Below are positions 11,370 through 15,339 of a DNA stretch of 24,000 bases, piece after piece. Position 1 is the first letter of the stretch, and each line of letters opens with the position of its first letter. Made by a program: the position numbers and the translations under genes. Origin of the DNA: Geosporobacter subterraneus DSM 17957 (GTDB lineage: Bacteria; Bacillota; Clostridia; Peptostreptococcales; Thermotaleaceae); contig NZ_FQZV01000042.1 in NCBI RefSeq assembly GCF_900142145.1, positions 1-24,000 of the forward strand, in the 5' to 3' direction. The notes under the pieces were generated by a model. It made no database searches and was not told the origin of the DNA. It saw nothing but the letters and a program-made list of their open reading frames with translations.

Positions 11370-11489
11370 TATTATGGAACCTTATTCTGACTTATTTAAG
11401 GCCCCATATCCTAGAATATTTTGTATGAATATTTAGTTTTTAATATCTTGAAACGAAAAATTGCGTTTATTGTCGAGTTTCTAAAGGGG

Positions 11490-11538
11490 CAAAAAATAAA
11501 AAGTTAGGCAGCATTCCATTAGAACACTTACCTAACTT
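11490..11538 (-). terminator. Possible intrinsic terminator downstream of the HesB-like gene
   Basis: AAGTTAGG(11501-11508)/CCTAACTT(11531-11538) 8-bp stem with a large 22-nt loop. Long T-run on minus (A-run 11491-11500 on plus). Confidence 0.45.
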
Positions 11539-11661
11539 TTATGTCTTTCGTTGAAGGAATATAATTTGCTTATGCAAATTATTTTTGCAACTTGTTCATG
11601 TGCAGCCTGTTTTTGAGGCTGAAATTCCCTCTAGCTTGATATGATTTATCCATAAAGCCTA

Positions 11662-11982
11662 TTACTGACAACTGTCTCCACAACTGTCACCGCAGCTCCT
11701 TGCACCTGTAGATATCGTAAAGCCTTTCCCCCGGGCATTATTCACGAAATCTAAACTCAGCTCCGGCACTCCTTCCAGTACTTCCTTAGCTACAATTACG
11801 CTAAAGGTACCGCAGTCCTCCACATGGTCTTCCTCTTTTAGCTCATCCAGAGCCATTCCGAAGGTTGGGCCTGCTCAACCATACCCTGTAATATACAGTC
11901 TTAAACCTTTGTTGGTCATGTCATAATTCTTTAACTGCTGTTCCAATTCCGTTTTTGCTACCTCTGAAATTTTTACGTTCAT
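11662..11982 (-). CDS. HesB/IscA-like selenoprotein (106 aa) with in-frame UGA (Sec) at 11877-11875
   Basis: ATG at 11982, 6 nt after AAGGAGG. Translation: MNVKISEVAKTELEQQLKNYDMTNKGLRLYITGYG-U-AGPTFGMALDE...GKGFTISTGARSCGDSCGDSCQ. The UGA sits where HesB/IscA proteins carry the conserved Cys (G-G-C-x-G). The frame is continuous across it (321 nt = 107 codons). The ORF track shows only the last 64 aa. Confidence 0.8.
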
Positions 11983-12153
11983 GATCATCCTCCTTCTCCC
12001 CTATACCTTATAGTATAGTTCTAGAATTTTCATTTTTATCCTCTTTTAATCCATCAGTTTTCTAGCGGTTAATATATTCACGGACTTTGTCGGTACATCT
12101 CTTGTATATAATCATGAATGTTCCCCCTCAATCCCCTCTTTTTTAGTTCAAAA

Positions 12154-12684
12154 CTACATGGATTCCGCCTTCTTGTAAATCCGCTCTATTTCTGCCTGAT
12201 CCGCAAAAGTGCATAAAACATAGGCTATGAGAATGATCCCCGGGATATCTACCAGCAGCCTTGTCAGCGCAAACTTTGCACCTAAAGCAGAGATTTCAAA
12301 AAGCAGCATGGGGATCTTGGTAGTAGACCAGGCTCCAATAAAAATCAGTACATTACTAAATTTGACTCCCTTTTTCATAAAGACTGCTGCTACGGGAAAA
12401 GCACCGTAGAGTGGCCCTGCTGCTGCAGAACCTATTAAAAATGCCAATAGAATACCCTTCAACCCCGAATCTTCCCCCATATACTTGATCATCGTCTCCT
12501 TTGGAACCCATACATCTAATAATCCCAAAAGCACGAAAATAGGCGGTATAACTAGAATCATCTCCTTTAAACTGTATCCGGTAATGCTGATGGCTTCTAT
12601 TCCCAGTTCTCTATTCCTCAGTACTAGAATTGACAGAAATAAAGCCGCTATTAAAAAGAATCTATATCGCTTTAATAACTTCAT
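12154..12684 (-). CDS. Permease subunit (COG0701-like two-component membrane permease), 176 aa
   Basis: Polytopic hydrophobic protein. ATGA start/stop overlap with the upstream permease gene indicates translational coupling. Confidence 0.65.
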   Translation of the reverse strand: MKLLKRYRFFLIAALFLSILVLRNRELGIEAISITGYSLKEMILVIPPIFVLLGLLDVWVPKETMIKYMGEDSGLKGILLAFLIGSAAAGPLYGAFPVAAVFMKKGVKFSNVLIFIGAWSTTKIPMLLFEISALGAKFALTRLLVDIPGIILIAYVLCTFADQAEIERIYKKAESM

Positions 12685-13166
12685 AGCCCCCCGACCACCT
12701 TTCCAATGACATATGCTACAGCAAAAGAAAAGAAAAAGGCCAAAACATTTCTCATGAGGGTCATCCTCTTTCCAAAATATTGGACTTCAACAGGGGCAGT
12801 GATGACGCCTACCATCATTAACGTTGATACAAATGCGCCAATCTGCATATATCCCGCTCCACTGTTTAATAATAGTGCAGCGGTAGGAAAAGCTACGAAT
12901 CCAGGAATCAAAGTGATCGCCCCAACGAGGGCAGAAAAAACCACTCCCAGCCATCCAGATTCATTTCCGATGAGCCGCGATATGAGCACTGCATCAAATA
13001 TGGCGAGCATGATTCCTACTAGGATGAGTACACCAAGCAATTGGGGCAAAATGTTTTCAAAGGATTTCCAAGCTTTTAATAAAGCCATTTTTGTTTTTTT
13101 CCGATCCTTATAGTAAGAAACCATCAAAAGCAGGATAACTAAACCGTACATCAGATATCCGTTCAT
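12681..13166 (-). CDS. Permease subunit (COG0701-like two-component membrane permease), 161 aa
   Basis: Polytopic hydrophobic protein. RBS GAGGTGGA 4 nt upstream of ATG 13166. Overlaps the next gene by ATGA. Confidence 0.65.
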   Translation of the reverse strand: MNGYLMYGLVILLLMVSYYKDRKKTKMALLKAWKSFENILPQLLGVLILVGIMLAIFDAVLISRLIGNESGWLGVVFSALVGAITLIPGFVAFPTAALLLNSGAGYMQIGAFVSTLMMVGVITAPVEVQYFGKRMTLMRNVLAFFFSFAVAYVIGKVVGGL

Positions 13167-13184
13167 TCATCCACCTCAATTCTA

Positions 13185-13406
13185 AAAAGAGACATCTATC
13201 CCAGATAGGGCCACTGAAAAAGTCCAGGTTTTGTCATTCTGAATGAAACGCAGTGAAATGAAGAATCTTTGAAGTGACTTAAATACTCAGATTCTTCGCA
13301 AGCTCCTTCGCTATCGCTCAGGACTAAAGGCTGAGAATGACAGTCCTGTGGATACAACGTATTATTTGACTTTTTCAGTGGTCTCCTCCAGATAGGTGTC
13401 TCTTTT
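13185..13406. mobile_element. Miniature inverted-repeat element nested in a terminator-like hairpin
   Basis: Perfect 14-bp terminal inverted repeats CCACTGAAAAAGTC (13211-13224) / GACTTTTTCAGTGG (13368-13381). 9-bp direct repeat CCAGATAGG at 13201-13209 and 13388-13396. Outer arms AAAAGAGACATCTATC (13185-13200) / GATAGGTGTCTCTTTT (13391-13406). The interior is itself a long imperfect palindrome with GTCATTCTGA...GAAGAATCT modules. Confidence 0.7.
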
Positions 13407-13423
13407 AATCTCTACCCTTAATG

Positions 13424-13792
13424 TTAATGACCGCAACCATGATGACTGCAGCTATTATGGACAGCAAACTCTTGAAGCTCATTATTCTTTAGACGCTCAA
13501 TATTTTGAAGTACGGTTTCATTCGTAACCCGGTAGGCTTTTACGCCTTGGTTATTCAGCTTTGTCAACGCTCCTGCGCCTATGCCCCCTACCAGAATCGC
13601 TTCCACTGCTTCTCCGCCTAAGGCTTTTAAGGGCTGGCACATGCCATGGACATGGTGCAAATCCTTATTCTCGATCACCTTATGCTCTTCCTTCTCCAAA
13701 TCATAAATCAAAAAAAATGGAGCTGAACCAAAATGGCTGTAAGCGATGCTGTCTAATCCCTTATTTTCTTCTATAGGTATACATATCTTCAT
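13424..13792 (-). CDS. NifX/NifB-like (dinitrogenase Fe-Mo cofactor family) small protein with Cys/His tail (122 aa)
   Basis: MKICIPIEENKGLDSIAYSHFGSAPFFLIYD ... ILVGGIGAGALTKL pattern of the NifB/NifX/MTH1175 family. Tail HNSCSHHGCGH. Start set to ATG 13792 (RBS AAAGGGG). The longer track ORF overlaps the ArsR gene. Confidence 0.75.
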   Translation of the reverse strand: MKICIPIEENKGLDSIAYSHFGSAPFFLIYDLEKEEHKVIENKDLHHVHGMCQPLKALGGEAVEAILVGGIGAGALTKLNNQGVKAYRVTNETVLQNIERLKNNELQEFAVHNSCSHHGCGH

Positions 13793-13794
13793 AT

Positions 13795-14178
13795 CTATTC
13801 CCCTTTCTTCTCTAAAACCCTTATTTTTTTGCAGCATTTGTTTTTCGTTACGCTGCAGGATTCGGCACATTCTTTCGGTATATGCGTGTCTAAGGGACAA
13901 CTGCCCTGCATATGGCTGTTTTTTATCTGTTCTATGAACTGTGCTGTTTCAACCAGACTAGATTCCTGCAAATCGTATTGAACAAAATATCCCACCTTTT
14001 CGCCAACAATAATTCCTGCATCTTTGAGAATTTTTATATGCTGTGATACAGCTGCCTCTGAAATACCTAAATGCTTGGCAATTCCTTTGGCGCAAATTCT
14101 TCTTCTCGAGAGAATAATGAGTATTTTTAACCTCGTTTCATCCCCTAGCGCCTTCAATAACTGAACAATCCGGTCCAT
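13795..14178 (-). CDS. ArsR/SmtB-family metalloregulator with Cys-rich C-terminal extension (127 aa)
   Basis: LKALGDETRLKILIIL...ICAKGIAKHLGISEAAVSQHIKILKDAGII winged-HTH signature. C-terminal CPLDTHIPKECAESCSVTKNKCC. Confidence 0.85.
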   Translation of the reverse strand: MDRIVQLLKALGDETRLKILIILSRRRICAKGIAKHLGISEAAVSQHIKILKDAGIIVGEKVGYFVQYDLQESSLVETAQFIEQIKNSHMQGSCPLDTHIPKECAESCSVTKNKCCKKIRVLEKKGE

Positions 14179-14196
14179 TATTCACCCCCAATCCAG

Positions 14197-14246
14197 TTAA
14201 GCGATTGCTTAATTAAAATACTATTCCTCTTTTTTCTATTTGTCAA
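14197..14246 (-). promoter_or_regulatory. ArsR-operon promoter with overlapping palindromic operator
   Basis: Read on minus: TTGACA (14246-14241), 17-nt spacer, TAGTAT (14223-14218), then the perfect 16-bp palindrome TTAAGCAATCGCTTAA (14212-14197) between the -10 and the RBS. Confidence 0.55.
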
Positions 14247-14709: not shown

Positions 14710-15339
14710 TTATATCTTCTCTGCTTTAAATCTCAGCACCGTTTTCAGCTTATGTGCTTCCGTTTTTCTAGGATCTGACAGATAAATCTCCCGATGGGTA
14801 TGTTCTATTCTCTTAAAACCATTTTCTAAGCAAAATGATTCCATCCTGGCAAAGCTTGCAGGCTCATCATCATAGCTCCCCATGTGCATCATCTGAATAC
14901 ATAAGCCTTCCTCTATGCAGCCGAAACGAACTCTGTCTAAAGCCGGATTTGGCTTCTTTCTTCTCGTTTTTTCCAGGATTTCGGCAGCAAGCTGATCCGT
15001 TACAAACTCCGGCTGCCGTATCATGATCGTATAAACTAATTTGTTTTTATCCAAGATAGTAAAATCCTTGGCATCATCCTCCAAATCCCATACTCCTTCC
15101 AGTGGAAAGACCGTATACTCAAAATATCCTTCCGGGGTCATGCCTCCTTTGGGCGCCATCTTTATCCCATAAGAAAGAGAATATAATGCCTGTATCTCTT
15201 CTCCAAAGGCCTCACCATTGGGATCTCCTTTTCCGTCGATCATGAAGAATTTCATCTCCGGCACCTGAACAACCATAGGTTTCTGGGGCGGAAGATACAA
15301 TTCCTTATAATCCTTCTTATAATCAACCTTTTTTTCCAT
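14710..15339 (-). CDS. GyrI-like small-molecule-binding domain protein (209 aa)
   Basis: N-terminus DYKKDYKELYLPPQKPMVVQVPEMKFFMIDGKGDPNG is the characteristic opening of stand-alone GyrI-like (SOUL/effector-binding fold) proteins. Confidence 0.75.
   Translation of the reverse strand: MEKKVDYKKDYKELYLPPQKPMVVQVPEMKFFMIDGKGDPNGEAFGEEIQALYSLSYGIKMAPKGGMTPEGYFEYTVFPLEGVWDLEDDAKDFTILDKNKLVYTIMIRQPEFVTDQLAAEILEKTRRKKPNPALDRVRFGCIEEGLCIQMMHMGSYDDEPASFARMESFCLENGFKRIEHTHREIYLSDPRKTEAHKLKTVLRFKAEKI

What the first reader, a model, noticed from the sequence alone, without database searches (positions are those of the whole stretch)
11662..14246. ArsR / NifX-like / split permease / HesB-Sec cluster in which every soluble protein carries a Cys-rich tail
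- **Seen in the sequence.** Five same-strand genes: an ArsR-family repressor with tail CPLDTHIPKECAESCSVTKNKCC, a NifX/NifB-like protein with tail HNSCSHHGCGH, two translationally coupled permease halves (ATGA overlap), and a HesB-like selenoprotein with tail SCGDSCGDSC.
- **Repressor layout.** The ArsR promoter carries a perfect 16-bp palindrome immediately after its -10, which is a classic autorepression arrangement.
- **Inference.** Three unrelated folds all carry thiol/His-rich C-terminal extensions, alongside a Sec-containing cluster-carrier homolog and a dedicated permease. This suggests a metal-, metalloid- or selenium-responsive trafficking or detoxification module rather than housekeeping Fe-S assembly.
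- **Unknowns.** The ligand is not identifiable from sequence, and I do not know of a characterised system with this composition.
Basis: partly seen in the sequence, partly recalled or inferred. Interest (0 to 1): 0.65.

Follow-up and report, generated by a model that had tools for sequence, protein, structure and literature searches.

The report
ArsR–NifX-like module joined to split permease
The five genes are real, but they are three separate evolutionary units: a widespread, uncharacterised self-repressed ArsR regulator plus small NifX-like metal-binding protein pair, a common cysteine-free two-piece permease joined to it in one small lineage, and a known HesB-like selenoprotein that is only a neighbour.

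Summary
All five minus-strand genes, their Cys/His tails, the ATGA overlap and the in-frame TGA exist as described. The palindrome is imperfect (7 of 8 pairs).

Comparison with other genomes splits the "cluster" into three modules.
1. **ArsR–NifX-like pair.** It keeps one promoter/operator layout (TTGACA-17-TATAAT, then TAATTAAGT-N4-ACTTAATTA) in about 20 sequence-distinct loci, most without any permease. ArsR has near-invariant C29, C104-x3-C108 and CC115-116. The NifX-like protein has invariant C115-x4-C120-x-H122.
2. **Split permease.** This Cys/His-free ArsP_1/DUF318 pair is always paired (80/80 loci). Its neighbours vary: ars-type genes, CDF, MFS.
3. **HesB-like selenoprotein.** This is a known family. 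It lies near the other genes only in Geosporobacter, and its "tail" is the family's normal C-terminal cysteine region.

Modules 1 and 2 are joined in the window, five genomes and three metagenome contigs. A conserved terminator hairpin always sits between them. In the window a MITE with 34 genomic copies lies in its loop.

The most likely function is a thiophilic-ligand-derepressed sequestration unit, with read-through to an exporter. The ligand is unknown. No expression data could be obtained.

The parts
14218..14246 (-). Sigma-70-type promoter: TTGACA, 17 nt, TAGTAT
   Evidence: The same TTGACA-17-TAtaAT layout appears in orthologous promoters.
14197..14212 (.). ArsR operator. It is an imperfect inverted repeat, TTAAGC-GATT-GCTTAA, 5 nt after the -10.
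   Evidence: One search gives the sequence (7 of 8 pairs). Searches show conservation as TAATTAAGT-N4-ACTTAATTA in about 20 sequence-distinct loci. The window's T>C / A>G change is symmetric. One search shows the motif occurs once in the 3.86-Mb genome.
13795..14178 (-). ArsR/SmtB-family repressor, 127 aa. Conserved cysteines are C29, C104, C108, C115 and C116.
   Evidence: NF033788, 73 bits against a cut-off of 55. (nearest solved structures are Lmo1102, SmtB, CmtR, CzrA, NmtR and CadC). One search gives Cys conservation in 24 orthologues.
13424..13792 (-). Small NifX/ORP-fold protein (Nitro_FeMo-Co, COG1433-type), 122 aa. Its start lies 2 nt after the ArsR stop. Its tail is C115-x4-C120-x-H122.
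   Evidence: PF02579, 75.9 bits. One search lists the invariant residues. Searches give the structural neighbours TM1816, TM1290, the orange protein, NafY and NifX. One search shows a confident core with low confidence at 47-52 and 113-122.
13180..13410 (-). Intrinsic-terminator-type hairpin between the two modules. The arms are 13391-13406 and 13185-13200, followed by a T-run.
   Evidence: One search shows an equivalent hairpin plus T-run in all five orthologous operons, and in the window once the insert is removed.
13209..13396 (.). MITE-like repeat element inserted in the loop of that hairpin
   Evidence: One search found 34 matches in the window's own genome at 73-94% identity. One search found terminal inverted repeats at 13211-13224 and 13368-13381.
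12681..13166 (-). PermA, the first half of a split ArsP_1/DUF318-type permease (161 aa, no Cys, no His)
   Evidence: weak PF03773 match, 17.7 bits. One search shows it paired with PermB in 80 of 80 loci..
12154..12684 (-). PermB, the second half (176 aa). It overlaps PermA by ATGA.
   Evidence: PF03773, 54 bits against a cut-off of 32.3. One search found more than 6,300 homologues. One search shows it aligns best with the Cys-free second repeat of full-length ArsP-type paralogues.
11989..12153 (-). PermB-HesB spacer. No terminator and no consensus promoter were detected.
   Evidence: (fold z-score -1.2).
11662..11982 (-). HesB-like selenoprotein gene. The Sec codon is at 11877-11875. A small conserved hairpin lies at 11839-11855.
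   Evidence: One search shows the hairpin, but the fold is not better than shuffles. One search shows nucleotide conservation after the UGA. One search compares the family.
11486..11540 (-). Strong intrinsic terminator after hesB
   Evidence: z-score -5.2; the stem is followed by UUUUUAUUUUUU.

Best explanation
**What the locus is.** It is a composite of three units.

**Core unit.** The core is a self-repressed two-gene unit, arsR plus a NifX/ORP-fold gene.
- Without its ligand, the ArsR dimer sits on the inverted repeat that overlaps the transcription start.
- A thiophilic ligand (soft metal, metalloid or metal-sulfur species; identity unknown) binds the conserved Cys set C104-x3-C108...C115-C116, possibly with C29. 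This releases the repressor.
- The NifX-like protein is then made. It captures the same ligand through its flexible H47-x-H49-G-M-C52 loop and its C115-x4-C120-x-H122 end. It would act as a buffer or carrier, in the way SmtB controls SmtA or a repressor controls a chaperone.

**Permease.** In the window's lineage a Cys-free heterodimeric (4+4 TMS) DUF318-type permease has been placed downstream, behind a conserved terminator. It can be expressed only by read-through. This gives high sensor/carrier output and low exporter output.

**HesB.** The hesB-Sec gene is a separate, known selenoprotein gene. It happens to lie next door and may pick up read-through.

**Shown:** gene content, conservation of the pair, the operator, the terminator and the Cys/His positions.

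**Inferred:** ligand binding, the sequestration role, the direction of transport and read-through.
For: **Operator and promoter.**
- The layout is conserved in about 20 sequence-distinct orthologous loci. This includes loci whose ArsR is only 41-50% identical.
- The motif is unique in the genome.

**Linkage of ArsR and the NifX-like gene.**
- ArsR is directly upstream (gap 6-38 nt) in 4 of 4 diverse genomes that have no permease.
- It is upstream in about 20 of 24 loci whose NifX-like protein is at least 58% identical.

**Conserved residues.**
- ArsR: C29 in 24/24, C104 in 23/24, C108 in 23/24, C115 in 22/24, C116 in 24/24.
- NifX-like protein: invariant C4, H20, H47, H49, C52, C115, C120 and H122.
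- The model has a confident core. Only the two Cys/His segments are low-confidence.
- The fold neighbours carry metal-sulfur cofactors: orange protein, NafY, NifX.

**Exporters.**
- Different exporters follow the pair: the split permease (window, 5 genomes, 3 contigs) or a His-rich CDF (L141, L142, L144).
- DUF318 relatives act in zinc resistance (bioRxiv 10.1101/072470) and organoarsenical efflux (PMC6205960).

**Terminator.** It is conserved between the modules, and no room remains for a promoter before PermA.
Against: - No expression or binding data exist.
- The permease halves have no His and essentially no Cys, and they lack the TPFCSCS motif. They therefore offer no obvious soft-metal ligands.
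- More distant NifX-like homologues with similar tails sit beside sulfur-handling genes: CoA-disulfide-reductase/rhodanese, DsrE, YeeE and NifU. Their regulator is DUF134 rather than ArsR. The ligand could therefore be a sulfur or Fe-S species.
- The terminator could mean that the permease is not co-regulated at all.
Confidence: 0.55

Rival explanations
1. **Fe-S or cofactor-carrier homeostasis.** The four tail cysteines of ArsR hold an Fe-S cluster, making it a SufR/IscR-like sensor. The NifX-like protein carries an Fe-S-type cluster. The HesB-like A-type carrier next door is then a genuine partner.
For: - The NifX/NafY/ORP fold is known for carrying metal-sulfur clusters.
- C-x3-C...CC gives four Cys ligands.
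- HesB aligns with IscA over its ligand positions.
- NifU_N genes lie near some distant homologues.
Against: - HesB linkage is confined to one genus and is interrupted there.
- Exporters (split permease, CDF) follow the pair, and these do not fit Fe-S assembly.
- No suf, isc or nif genes lie adjacent in any locus examined.
Confidence: 0.15
2. **Reactive-sulfur or selenium sensing.** ArsR works like BigR/SqrR, through Cys persulfidation or bridging. The NifX-like protein carries a sulfane-sulfur or selenium species. The permease moves a sulfur or selenium anion.
For: - Distant NifX-like homologues sit next to Pyr_redox_2+Rhodanese (16 loci), DsrE and split Sulf_transp/YeeE genes.
- The Cys-free permease suits an anion better than a soft metal.
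- The organism decodes Sec, and a selenoprotein gene lies adjacent.
Against: - The BigR model scores 28 bits against a cut-off of 155.
- BigR and SqrR are absent from the PDB hits at E<1e-3.
- The sulfur genes accompany only the 45-56% identical homologues that use DUF134, not the ArsR-linked subfamily.
Confidence: 0.15
3. **The first reader's version.** All five genes form one dedicated trafficking or detoxification system in which the selenoprotein is an integral component.
For: - All five genes are on the same strand.
- No terminator was detected between PermB and hesB.
- A strong terminator follows hesB only.
- The order is retained in G. ferrireducens.
Against: - In G. ferrireducens two unrelated genes (GNAT, YjbR) separate PermB from hesB.
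- Four other genomes carry ArsR-NifXl-PermAB but have no orthologue of this HesB.
- No other HesB-like locus examined has these partners.
- No operator copy lies near hesB.
Confidence: 0.1

Closest known systems
SmtB-SmtA (cyanobacterial ArsR/SmtB repressor controlling a metallothionein) and repressor-plus-chaperone pairs such as CopY-CopZ or ArsR-ArsD
   Same: An ArsR/SmtB-type repressor sits on an inverted repeat at its promoter. It controls a small Cys/His-bearing protein that would bind the inducing ligand. SmtB is among the nearest solved structures.
   Different: The controlled protein has a NifX/ORP fold, not a metallothionein, ferredoxin-like or ArsD fold. The two genes are co-transcribed. 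The sensor cysteines lie in a C-terminal C-x3-C...CC tail. That SmtB-SmtA works this way is from general knowledge and was not tested here.
AfArsR / SpArsR-type ArsR repressors, with a C-terminal vicinal Cys pair that binds As(III) or MAs(III)
   Same: There is an invariant vicinal CC pair near the C-terminus plus further tail cysteines. PMC6514093 describes the Cys101-102 site in MAs(III)-selective ArsR.
   Different: No ars genes (acr3, arsB, arsC, arsM) are in the operon. The spacing and number of Cys differ. The canonical alpha3 C-x-C site is reduced to a single Cys29.
ArsP (TC 2.A.119, organoarsenical efflux permease) and the SO_0444/Shew_3410-type Cu/Zn efflux DUF318 proteins
   Same: Both belong to the Pfam ArsP_1 superfamily, with a 4+4 TMS repeat architecture (PMC7176098). 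In other genomes the split pair often lies in ArsR-controlled operons beside ArsP, ArsE-type thioredoxin, Acr3 and ArsC.
   Different: The protein is split into two genes. There is no TPFCSCS Cys pair and no His. NF033936 scores only 20 bits against a cut-off of 300. The substrate is unknown.
COG1433 small NifX-like proteins (TM1816, TM1290, MTH1175, MJ0327, PH0822) and the Desulfovibrio orange protein
   Same: Same fold: Foldseek E 1e-9 to 1e-5, TM-score 0.7-0.8. Same HFG-AP core motif.
   Different: This subfamily adds an invariant C-terminal C-x4-C-x-H and a fixed ArsR partner. The structural-genomics members have no assigned function (PMC2954228).
HesB-like selenoprotein family (TIGR01911 / NF038090)
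   Same: Sec replaces the first ligand Cys in a U-x-G-P motif (PMC13188914). The family is common in anaerobes (PMC1794560).
   Different: It scores below both curated cut-offs: 49.8 against 66.35, and 64.7 against 85. It carries a C-x3-C-x3-C end, where most members have a single terminal Cys.

Membership tests
ArsR/SmtB metalloregulators | Winged-helix HTH_5 domain that scores above the curated cut-off | tested here: met
   NF033788 at 73 bits (cut-off 55) and PF01022 at 53 bits (cut-off 22).
ArsR/SmtB metalloregulators | Inverted-repeat operator overlapping its own promoter (autorepression) | tested here: met
   The repeat lies directly after the -10 and is conserved in about 20 sequence-distinct orthologous promoters. 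Binding itself was not tested.
ArsR/SmtB metalloregulators | A recognised ligand site (alpha3 C-x-C, alpha3N, alpha5, or C-terminal Cys as in AfArsR/CmtR) | tested here: inconclusive
   The alpha3 site is reduced to a single C29. A conserved C-terminal C104-x3-C108...C115-C116 is present, but it does not match a characterised spacing.
ArsP organoarsenical efflux permease (TC 2.A.119.1) | Pfam ArsP_1 domain above the gathering score | tested here: inconclusive
   PermB scores 54 bits (cut-off 32.3). PermA scores 17.7 bits, below the cut-off.
ArsP organoarsenical efflux permease (TC 2.A.119.1) | Conserved Cys pair in the TPFCSCS motif of the first repeat | tested here: not met
   PermB has AAAGPLYGA in the aligned position, and PermA has a gap there. 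About 24 of 80 loci carry a full-length neighbouring paralogue with TPFCSCS. That this motif defines ArsP is from my recollection of Chen et al. 2015; the paper is not held.
SO_0444-family Cu/Zn efflux transporter | NF033936 equivalog score | tested here: not met
   20 bits against a cut-off of 300.
NifX (nitrogenase cofactor chaperone) | TIGR02663 equivalog score | tested here: not met
   20.6 bits against a cut-off of 112. Only the general PF02579 domain is met. No nif genes lie adjacent in the window or in related loci.
HesB-like selenoprotein (TIGR01911 / NF038090) | Sec in the U-x-G-P motif, in an organism with Sec machinery | tested here: met
   G-Y-G-U-A-G-P, a tRNA-Sec and SelB at 388 bits.
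HesB-like selenoprotein (TIGR01911 / NF038090) | Curated HMM cut-off | tested here: not met
   49.8 bits against 66.35, and 64.7 bits against 85, with C standing in for U. It is a divergent subfamily.
HesB-like selenoprotein (TIGR01911 / NF038090) | Bacterial SECIS hairpin downstream of the UGA | tested here: inconclusive
   A 6-bp hairpin with a UGGAU loop starts 19 nt after the UGA, and its sequence is conserved in G. ferrireducens. The fold is no better than shuffles (z = 0.1), and the two sequences give no covariation.
BigR/SqrR persulfide-sensing ArsR repressors | NF040642 equivalog score | tested here: not met
   28 bits against a cut-off of 155. Neither protein is among the PDB hits.

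The most novel reading that the evidence does not exclude
The ArsR-NifX-like pair would be a widespread, undescribed two-part 'sensor plus carrier' system of anaerobes. It would handle a metal-sulfur or soft-metal species. The small COG1433-type protein would bind the ligand through its invariant C-x4-C-x-H end and its HxHGMC loop. This would be the first function for a structural-genomics family that has had none for over 20 years. The regulator slot would be interchangeable (ArsR in Clostridia/Fusobacteria, DUF134 in other lineages). The output would be pluggable into different exporters (split DUF318 permease, CDF).
Probability: 0.22. Interest if true: 0.7.

Novelty: new variant of a known kind. 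Interest (0 to 1): 0.4.

Why it matters
- **It corrects an attractive over-reading.** The apparent five-gene selenium/metal system is a juxtaposition of modules.
- **It isolates a testable unit.** The unit is a repressor with a defined operator and conserved Cys ligands, always paired with a small NifX-fold protein that has an invariant Cys/His terminus.
- **It offers an entry point to an unassigned family.** Small NifX-like (COG1433) proteins are common in anaerobes and have several solved structures, but no function outside nitrogen fixation and the orange-protein complex. A fixed regulator partner with a known DNA site makes their ligand findable by simple induction and binding assays.
- **It shows the split permease is its own clade.** The Cys-free DUF318 pair is very common (over 6,300 homologues) and uncharacterised. 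It differs from ArsP in the motif thought to bind arsenicals.

Tried and rejected
- **Rfam.** A scan of the window at gathering thresholds found nothing.
- **SECIS by thermodynamics.** The fold was not better than shuffles. I kept it only as a conserved small hairpin.
- **HesB homologues by the word-index search.** Only 3 hits came back, because gene callers truncate at the TGA. I replaced this with a six-frame genome search.
- **Class-wide sampling for the NifX-like orthologue.** Only 4 of 399 genomes had one. I used metagenome loci and encoding contigs instead.
- **ArsP membership.** Rejected on the missing TPFCSCS motif.
- **NifX proper, BigR and SO_0444 membership.** Rejected on curated scores.
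- **A promoter for PermAB.** Only about 20-40 nt remain after the terminator, so there is no room.
- **A second operator copy near PermA or hesB.** None exists in the whole genome.
- **A NifX-like tree to test for a single origin of the permease fusion.** It was too poorly resolved. The fusion is clustered (2 of 500 shuffles), and one origin is neither shown nor excluded.
- **The ArsP primary paper.** It is not held.
Full report
**Anatomy**

All genes are on the minus strand.
- A sigma-70-type promoter, TTGACA-17-TAGTAT, lies at 14246-14218.
- Five nt downstream is an inverted repeat at 14197-14212.
- arsR occupies 14178-13795.
- A Nitro_FeMo-Co (NifX-like) gene occupies 13792-13424. Its ATG is 2 nt after the arsR stop.
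- A 257-nt gap follows.
- Two permease halves follow: PermA (13166-12681) and PermB (12684-12154). They overlap by ATGA.
- A 171-nt spacer follows (measured to ATG 11982).
- A HesB-like gene occupies 11982-11662, with an in-frame TGA at 11877-11875.
- A strong terminator lies at 11540-11486 (z = -5.2).

- ArsR: NF033788, 73 bits against a cut-off of 55.
- NifX-like protein: PF02579, 75.9 bits.
- PermB: PF03773 (ArsP_1), 54 bits.
- PermA: the same family, but only 17.7 bits.
- HesB-like protein: 64.7 bits against 85 for NF038090, and 49.8 against 66.35 for TIGR01911. Both are below cut-off.

The genome decodes Sec. It has a tRNA-Sec and SelB at 388 bits.

The "perfect 16-bp palindrome" is not perfect. 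TTAAGCGATTGCTTAA has 7 of 8 complementary pairs.

**Is the five-gene set a conserved system? No**

I collected 80 genome loci that encode a PermB homologue of 64-80% identity. I then searched each for all five proteins.
- PermA-PermB are paired in 80 of 80 loci. The usual junction is an ATGA or 1-nt overlap.
- The window's order, ArsR-NifX-like-PermA-PermB, occurs in only five genomes: Geosporobacter ferrireducens, Thermotalea metallivorans, a Natronincolaceae MAG, Clostridiaceae bacterium 35-E11 and one Bacillota MAG.
- HesB appears only in G. ferrireducens. There a GNAT acetyltransferase gene and a YjbR gene lie between it and PermB.
- The other four genomes with the four-gene operon have no orthologue of this HesB. 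Their best matches are 29-34% identical and lie elsewhere.

HesB-like Sec genes are common. In a sample of 399 scored Clostridia genomes, 43 had one (the window's own plus 42 others).
- 29 of those loci were read with 1.5-kb flanks. None has ArsR, NifX-like or permease genes.
- The one other member of the window's subfamily (53% identity) lies between an EamA gene and a YhcN gene.

The window and G. ferrireducens are colinear over the whole region, from the GyrI-like gene to the PTS genes. HesB adjacency is therefore inherited gene order, not evidence of function.

**The real conserved unit is ArsR plus the NifX-like gene**

The 122-aa NifX-like subfamily has more than 120 database clusters at 61% identity or above.
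- In four diverse genomes an HTH_5 gene lies directly upstream and no permease lies downstream. These are Gottschalkia purinilytica, a Fusobacteriaceae MAG, Dehalobacter and Mobilisporobacter senegalensis.
- Among loci from metagenomes and other sources, ArsR is upstream in about 20 of 24 loci whose NifX-like protein is at least 58% identical. Not all of these loci are independent. The permease follows in only three.
- In L141, L142 and L144 the pair is followed instead by a His-rich CDF exporter.

The promoter is strikingly conserved. TTGACA-17-TAtaAT is followed by TAATTAAGT-N4-ACTTAATTA in about 20 sequence-distinct loci. This holds even where ArsR is only 41-50% identical.
- The window's version, TTAAGC...GCTTAA, changes both arms symmetrically.
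- The motif occurs once in the 3.86-Mb genome.

This is good comparative evidence for autorepression.

**Conserved ligand candidates**

ArsR keeps five cysteines across 24 orthologues:
- C29 in 24/24. It aligns with the first Cys of the alpha3 C-x-C motif.
- C104 in 23/24.
- C108 in 23/24.
- C115 in 22/24.
- C116 in 24/24.

The NifX-like protein has invariant C4, H20, H47, H49, C52, C115, C120 and H122, its last residue.

An AlphaFold model was built from 21 sequences, with mean pLDDT 80. The core is confident. Only two segments are low-confidence: 47-52 (the HxHGMC loop) and 113-122 (the tail). These are exactly the Cys/His segments. That fits a site which orders on ligand binding, but this is inference.

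The structural neighbours are TM1816, TM1290, the Desulfovibrio orange protein, PH0822, MJ0327, MTH1175, NafY and NifX. Where the function is known, this fold carries metal-sulfur cofactors. The small COG1433 members have no assigned function (PMC2954228).

**The HesB "tail" is a family trait**

It aligns with the canonical C-G-C ligand region of IscA-type proteins. Other HesB-like proteins end either in a single Cys or in C-x2-3-C-x2-3-C, in both Sec and Cys forms. The "three unrelated folds with thiol tails" argument therefore reduces to ArsR and the NifX-like protein.

**The permease**

- Each half has about four hydrophobic segments. This matches the 4+4 repeat of the ArsP family, in which half-size members are known (PMC7176098).
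- PermA has no Cys or His in 50 of 59 orthologues. PermB has one non-conserved Cys.
- Full-length paralogues that carry TPFCSCS lie beside the split pair in about 24 of 80 loci.
- The split halves lack that motif. They are therefore not ArsP in the strict sense.

Putative same-strand operons were called with a gap under 200 nt. In these, the split pair's partners vary:
- ArsR: 25 loci
- Thioredoxin_3 (ArsE-type): 14
- MFS: 12
- NifX-like: 8
- Acr3: 5
- Pyr_redox_2: 5
- CDF: 4
- DGC, DsbD_TM and ArsC also occur.

Operons containing ArsP, ArsE and DGC are arsenic-induced in Pseudodesulfovibrio mercurii (bioRxiv 10.1101/2022.10.17.512643). A DUF318 relative matters for zinc resistance in Shewanella (bioRxiv 10.1101/072470). 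The substrate of the split clade remains open.

**Operon structure**

The NifX-like/PermA gap holds a hairpin with an A-run before it and a T-run after it.
- The same terminator-type hairpin is present in all five orthologous operons. It also appears in the window once the insert is removed.
- In the window its loop carries a roughly 180-bp inverted-repeat element with 34 matches in the genome.
- Only about 20-40 nt separate the T-run from the PermA start, so no canonical promoter fits.
- PermAB must therefore depend on read-through. This would give a built-in high/low expression ratio. It also marks the seam where two modules were joined.

Between PermB and hesB I found no terminator (z = -1.2), no consensus promoter and no operator copy. 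Read-through into hesB is possible but untested.

**More distant relatives**

NifX-like proteins of 45-56% identity keep Cys/His ends, such as CAGHSGGGCAH and NACAQHGCH. Their context differs:
- DUF134, a predicted DNA-binding protein, is the commonest nearby same-strand gene (38 loci).
- Pyr_redox_2+Rhodanese: 16 loci.
- A SAM methyltransferase: 14 loci.
- DsrE, split YeeE-type Sulf_transp and NifU_N genes also occur.

This keeps a sulfur or Fe-S ligand in play. It also suggests a general "DNA-binding protein plus NifX-like carrier" design.

**Verdict**

Autorepression and an uncharacterised handling module for a thiophilic ligand are supported.
- It is wrong on scope. HesB is not part of the system, and the permease is an add-on in one lineage.
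- The ligand is unknown.
- I rate this a new variant of a known kind: an ArsR-controlled resistance or homeostasis unit whose effector is a NifX-fold protein.

Noticed in passing
window 13209-13396; G000 contigs C96, C106, C49, C40, C42 and others: A MITE-like element of about 175 bp with 14-bp perfect terminal inverted repeats. It has 34 matches in the genome at 73-94% identity, some covering only half the element. Here it lies in the loop of a conserved terminator.
   Followed up: partly
G000:C23:16212-16517 (minus strand): A second HesB-like selenoprotein paralogue, 34% identical with one in-frame TGA, lies elsewhere in the same genome.
   Followed up: no
L141, L142, L144 (metagenome contigs): An ArsR-NifX-like pair is followed by a CDF exporter that has a very long His-rich N-terminus (HEHKHEHIHNH...). 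The same sensor/carrier pair is coupled to a different exporter.
   Followed up: partly
L150-L217 (metagenome contigs): NifX-like genes with Cys/His ends are preceded by DUF134 genes whose N-terminus is Cys-bearing (RP..CR / CCRR). They often occur as tandem NifX-like duplicates and lie beside CoA-disulfide-reductase/rhodanese genes.
   Followed up: partly
about 24 of loci L009-L088, e.g. L027:4470-5480: Full-length ArsP_1 permeases with the TPFCSCS(S) motif lie immediately upstream of the Cys-free split pair. A Thioredoxin_3 (ArsE-type) gene often follows. The fused and split versions therefore co-exist in one operon.
   Followed up: partly
window 14710-15339 (minus strand): A GyrI-like small-molecule-binding protein gene (PF06445) lies upstream of the promoter. 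Its position is conserved in G. ferrireducens, where a metallophosphoesterase gene is inserted between it and arsR.
   Followed up: partly
L011, L012, L013, L014, L022 and others, promoter spacers: Many orthologous promoters carry an extra AATTAAGT half-site between the -35 and the -10, which suggests a second overlapping operator. The window lacks it.
   Followed up: no
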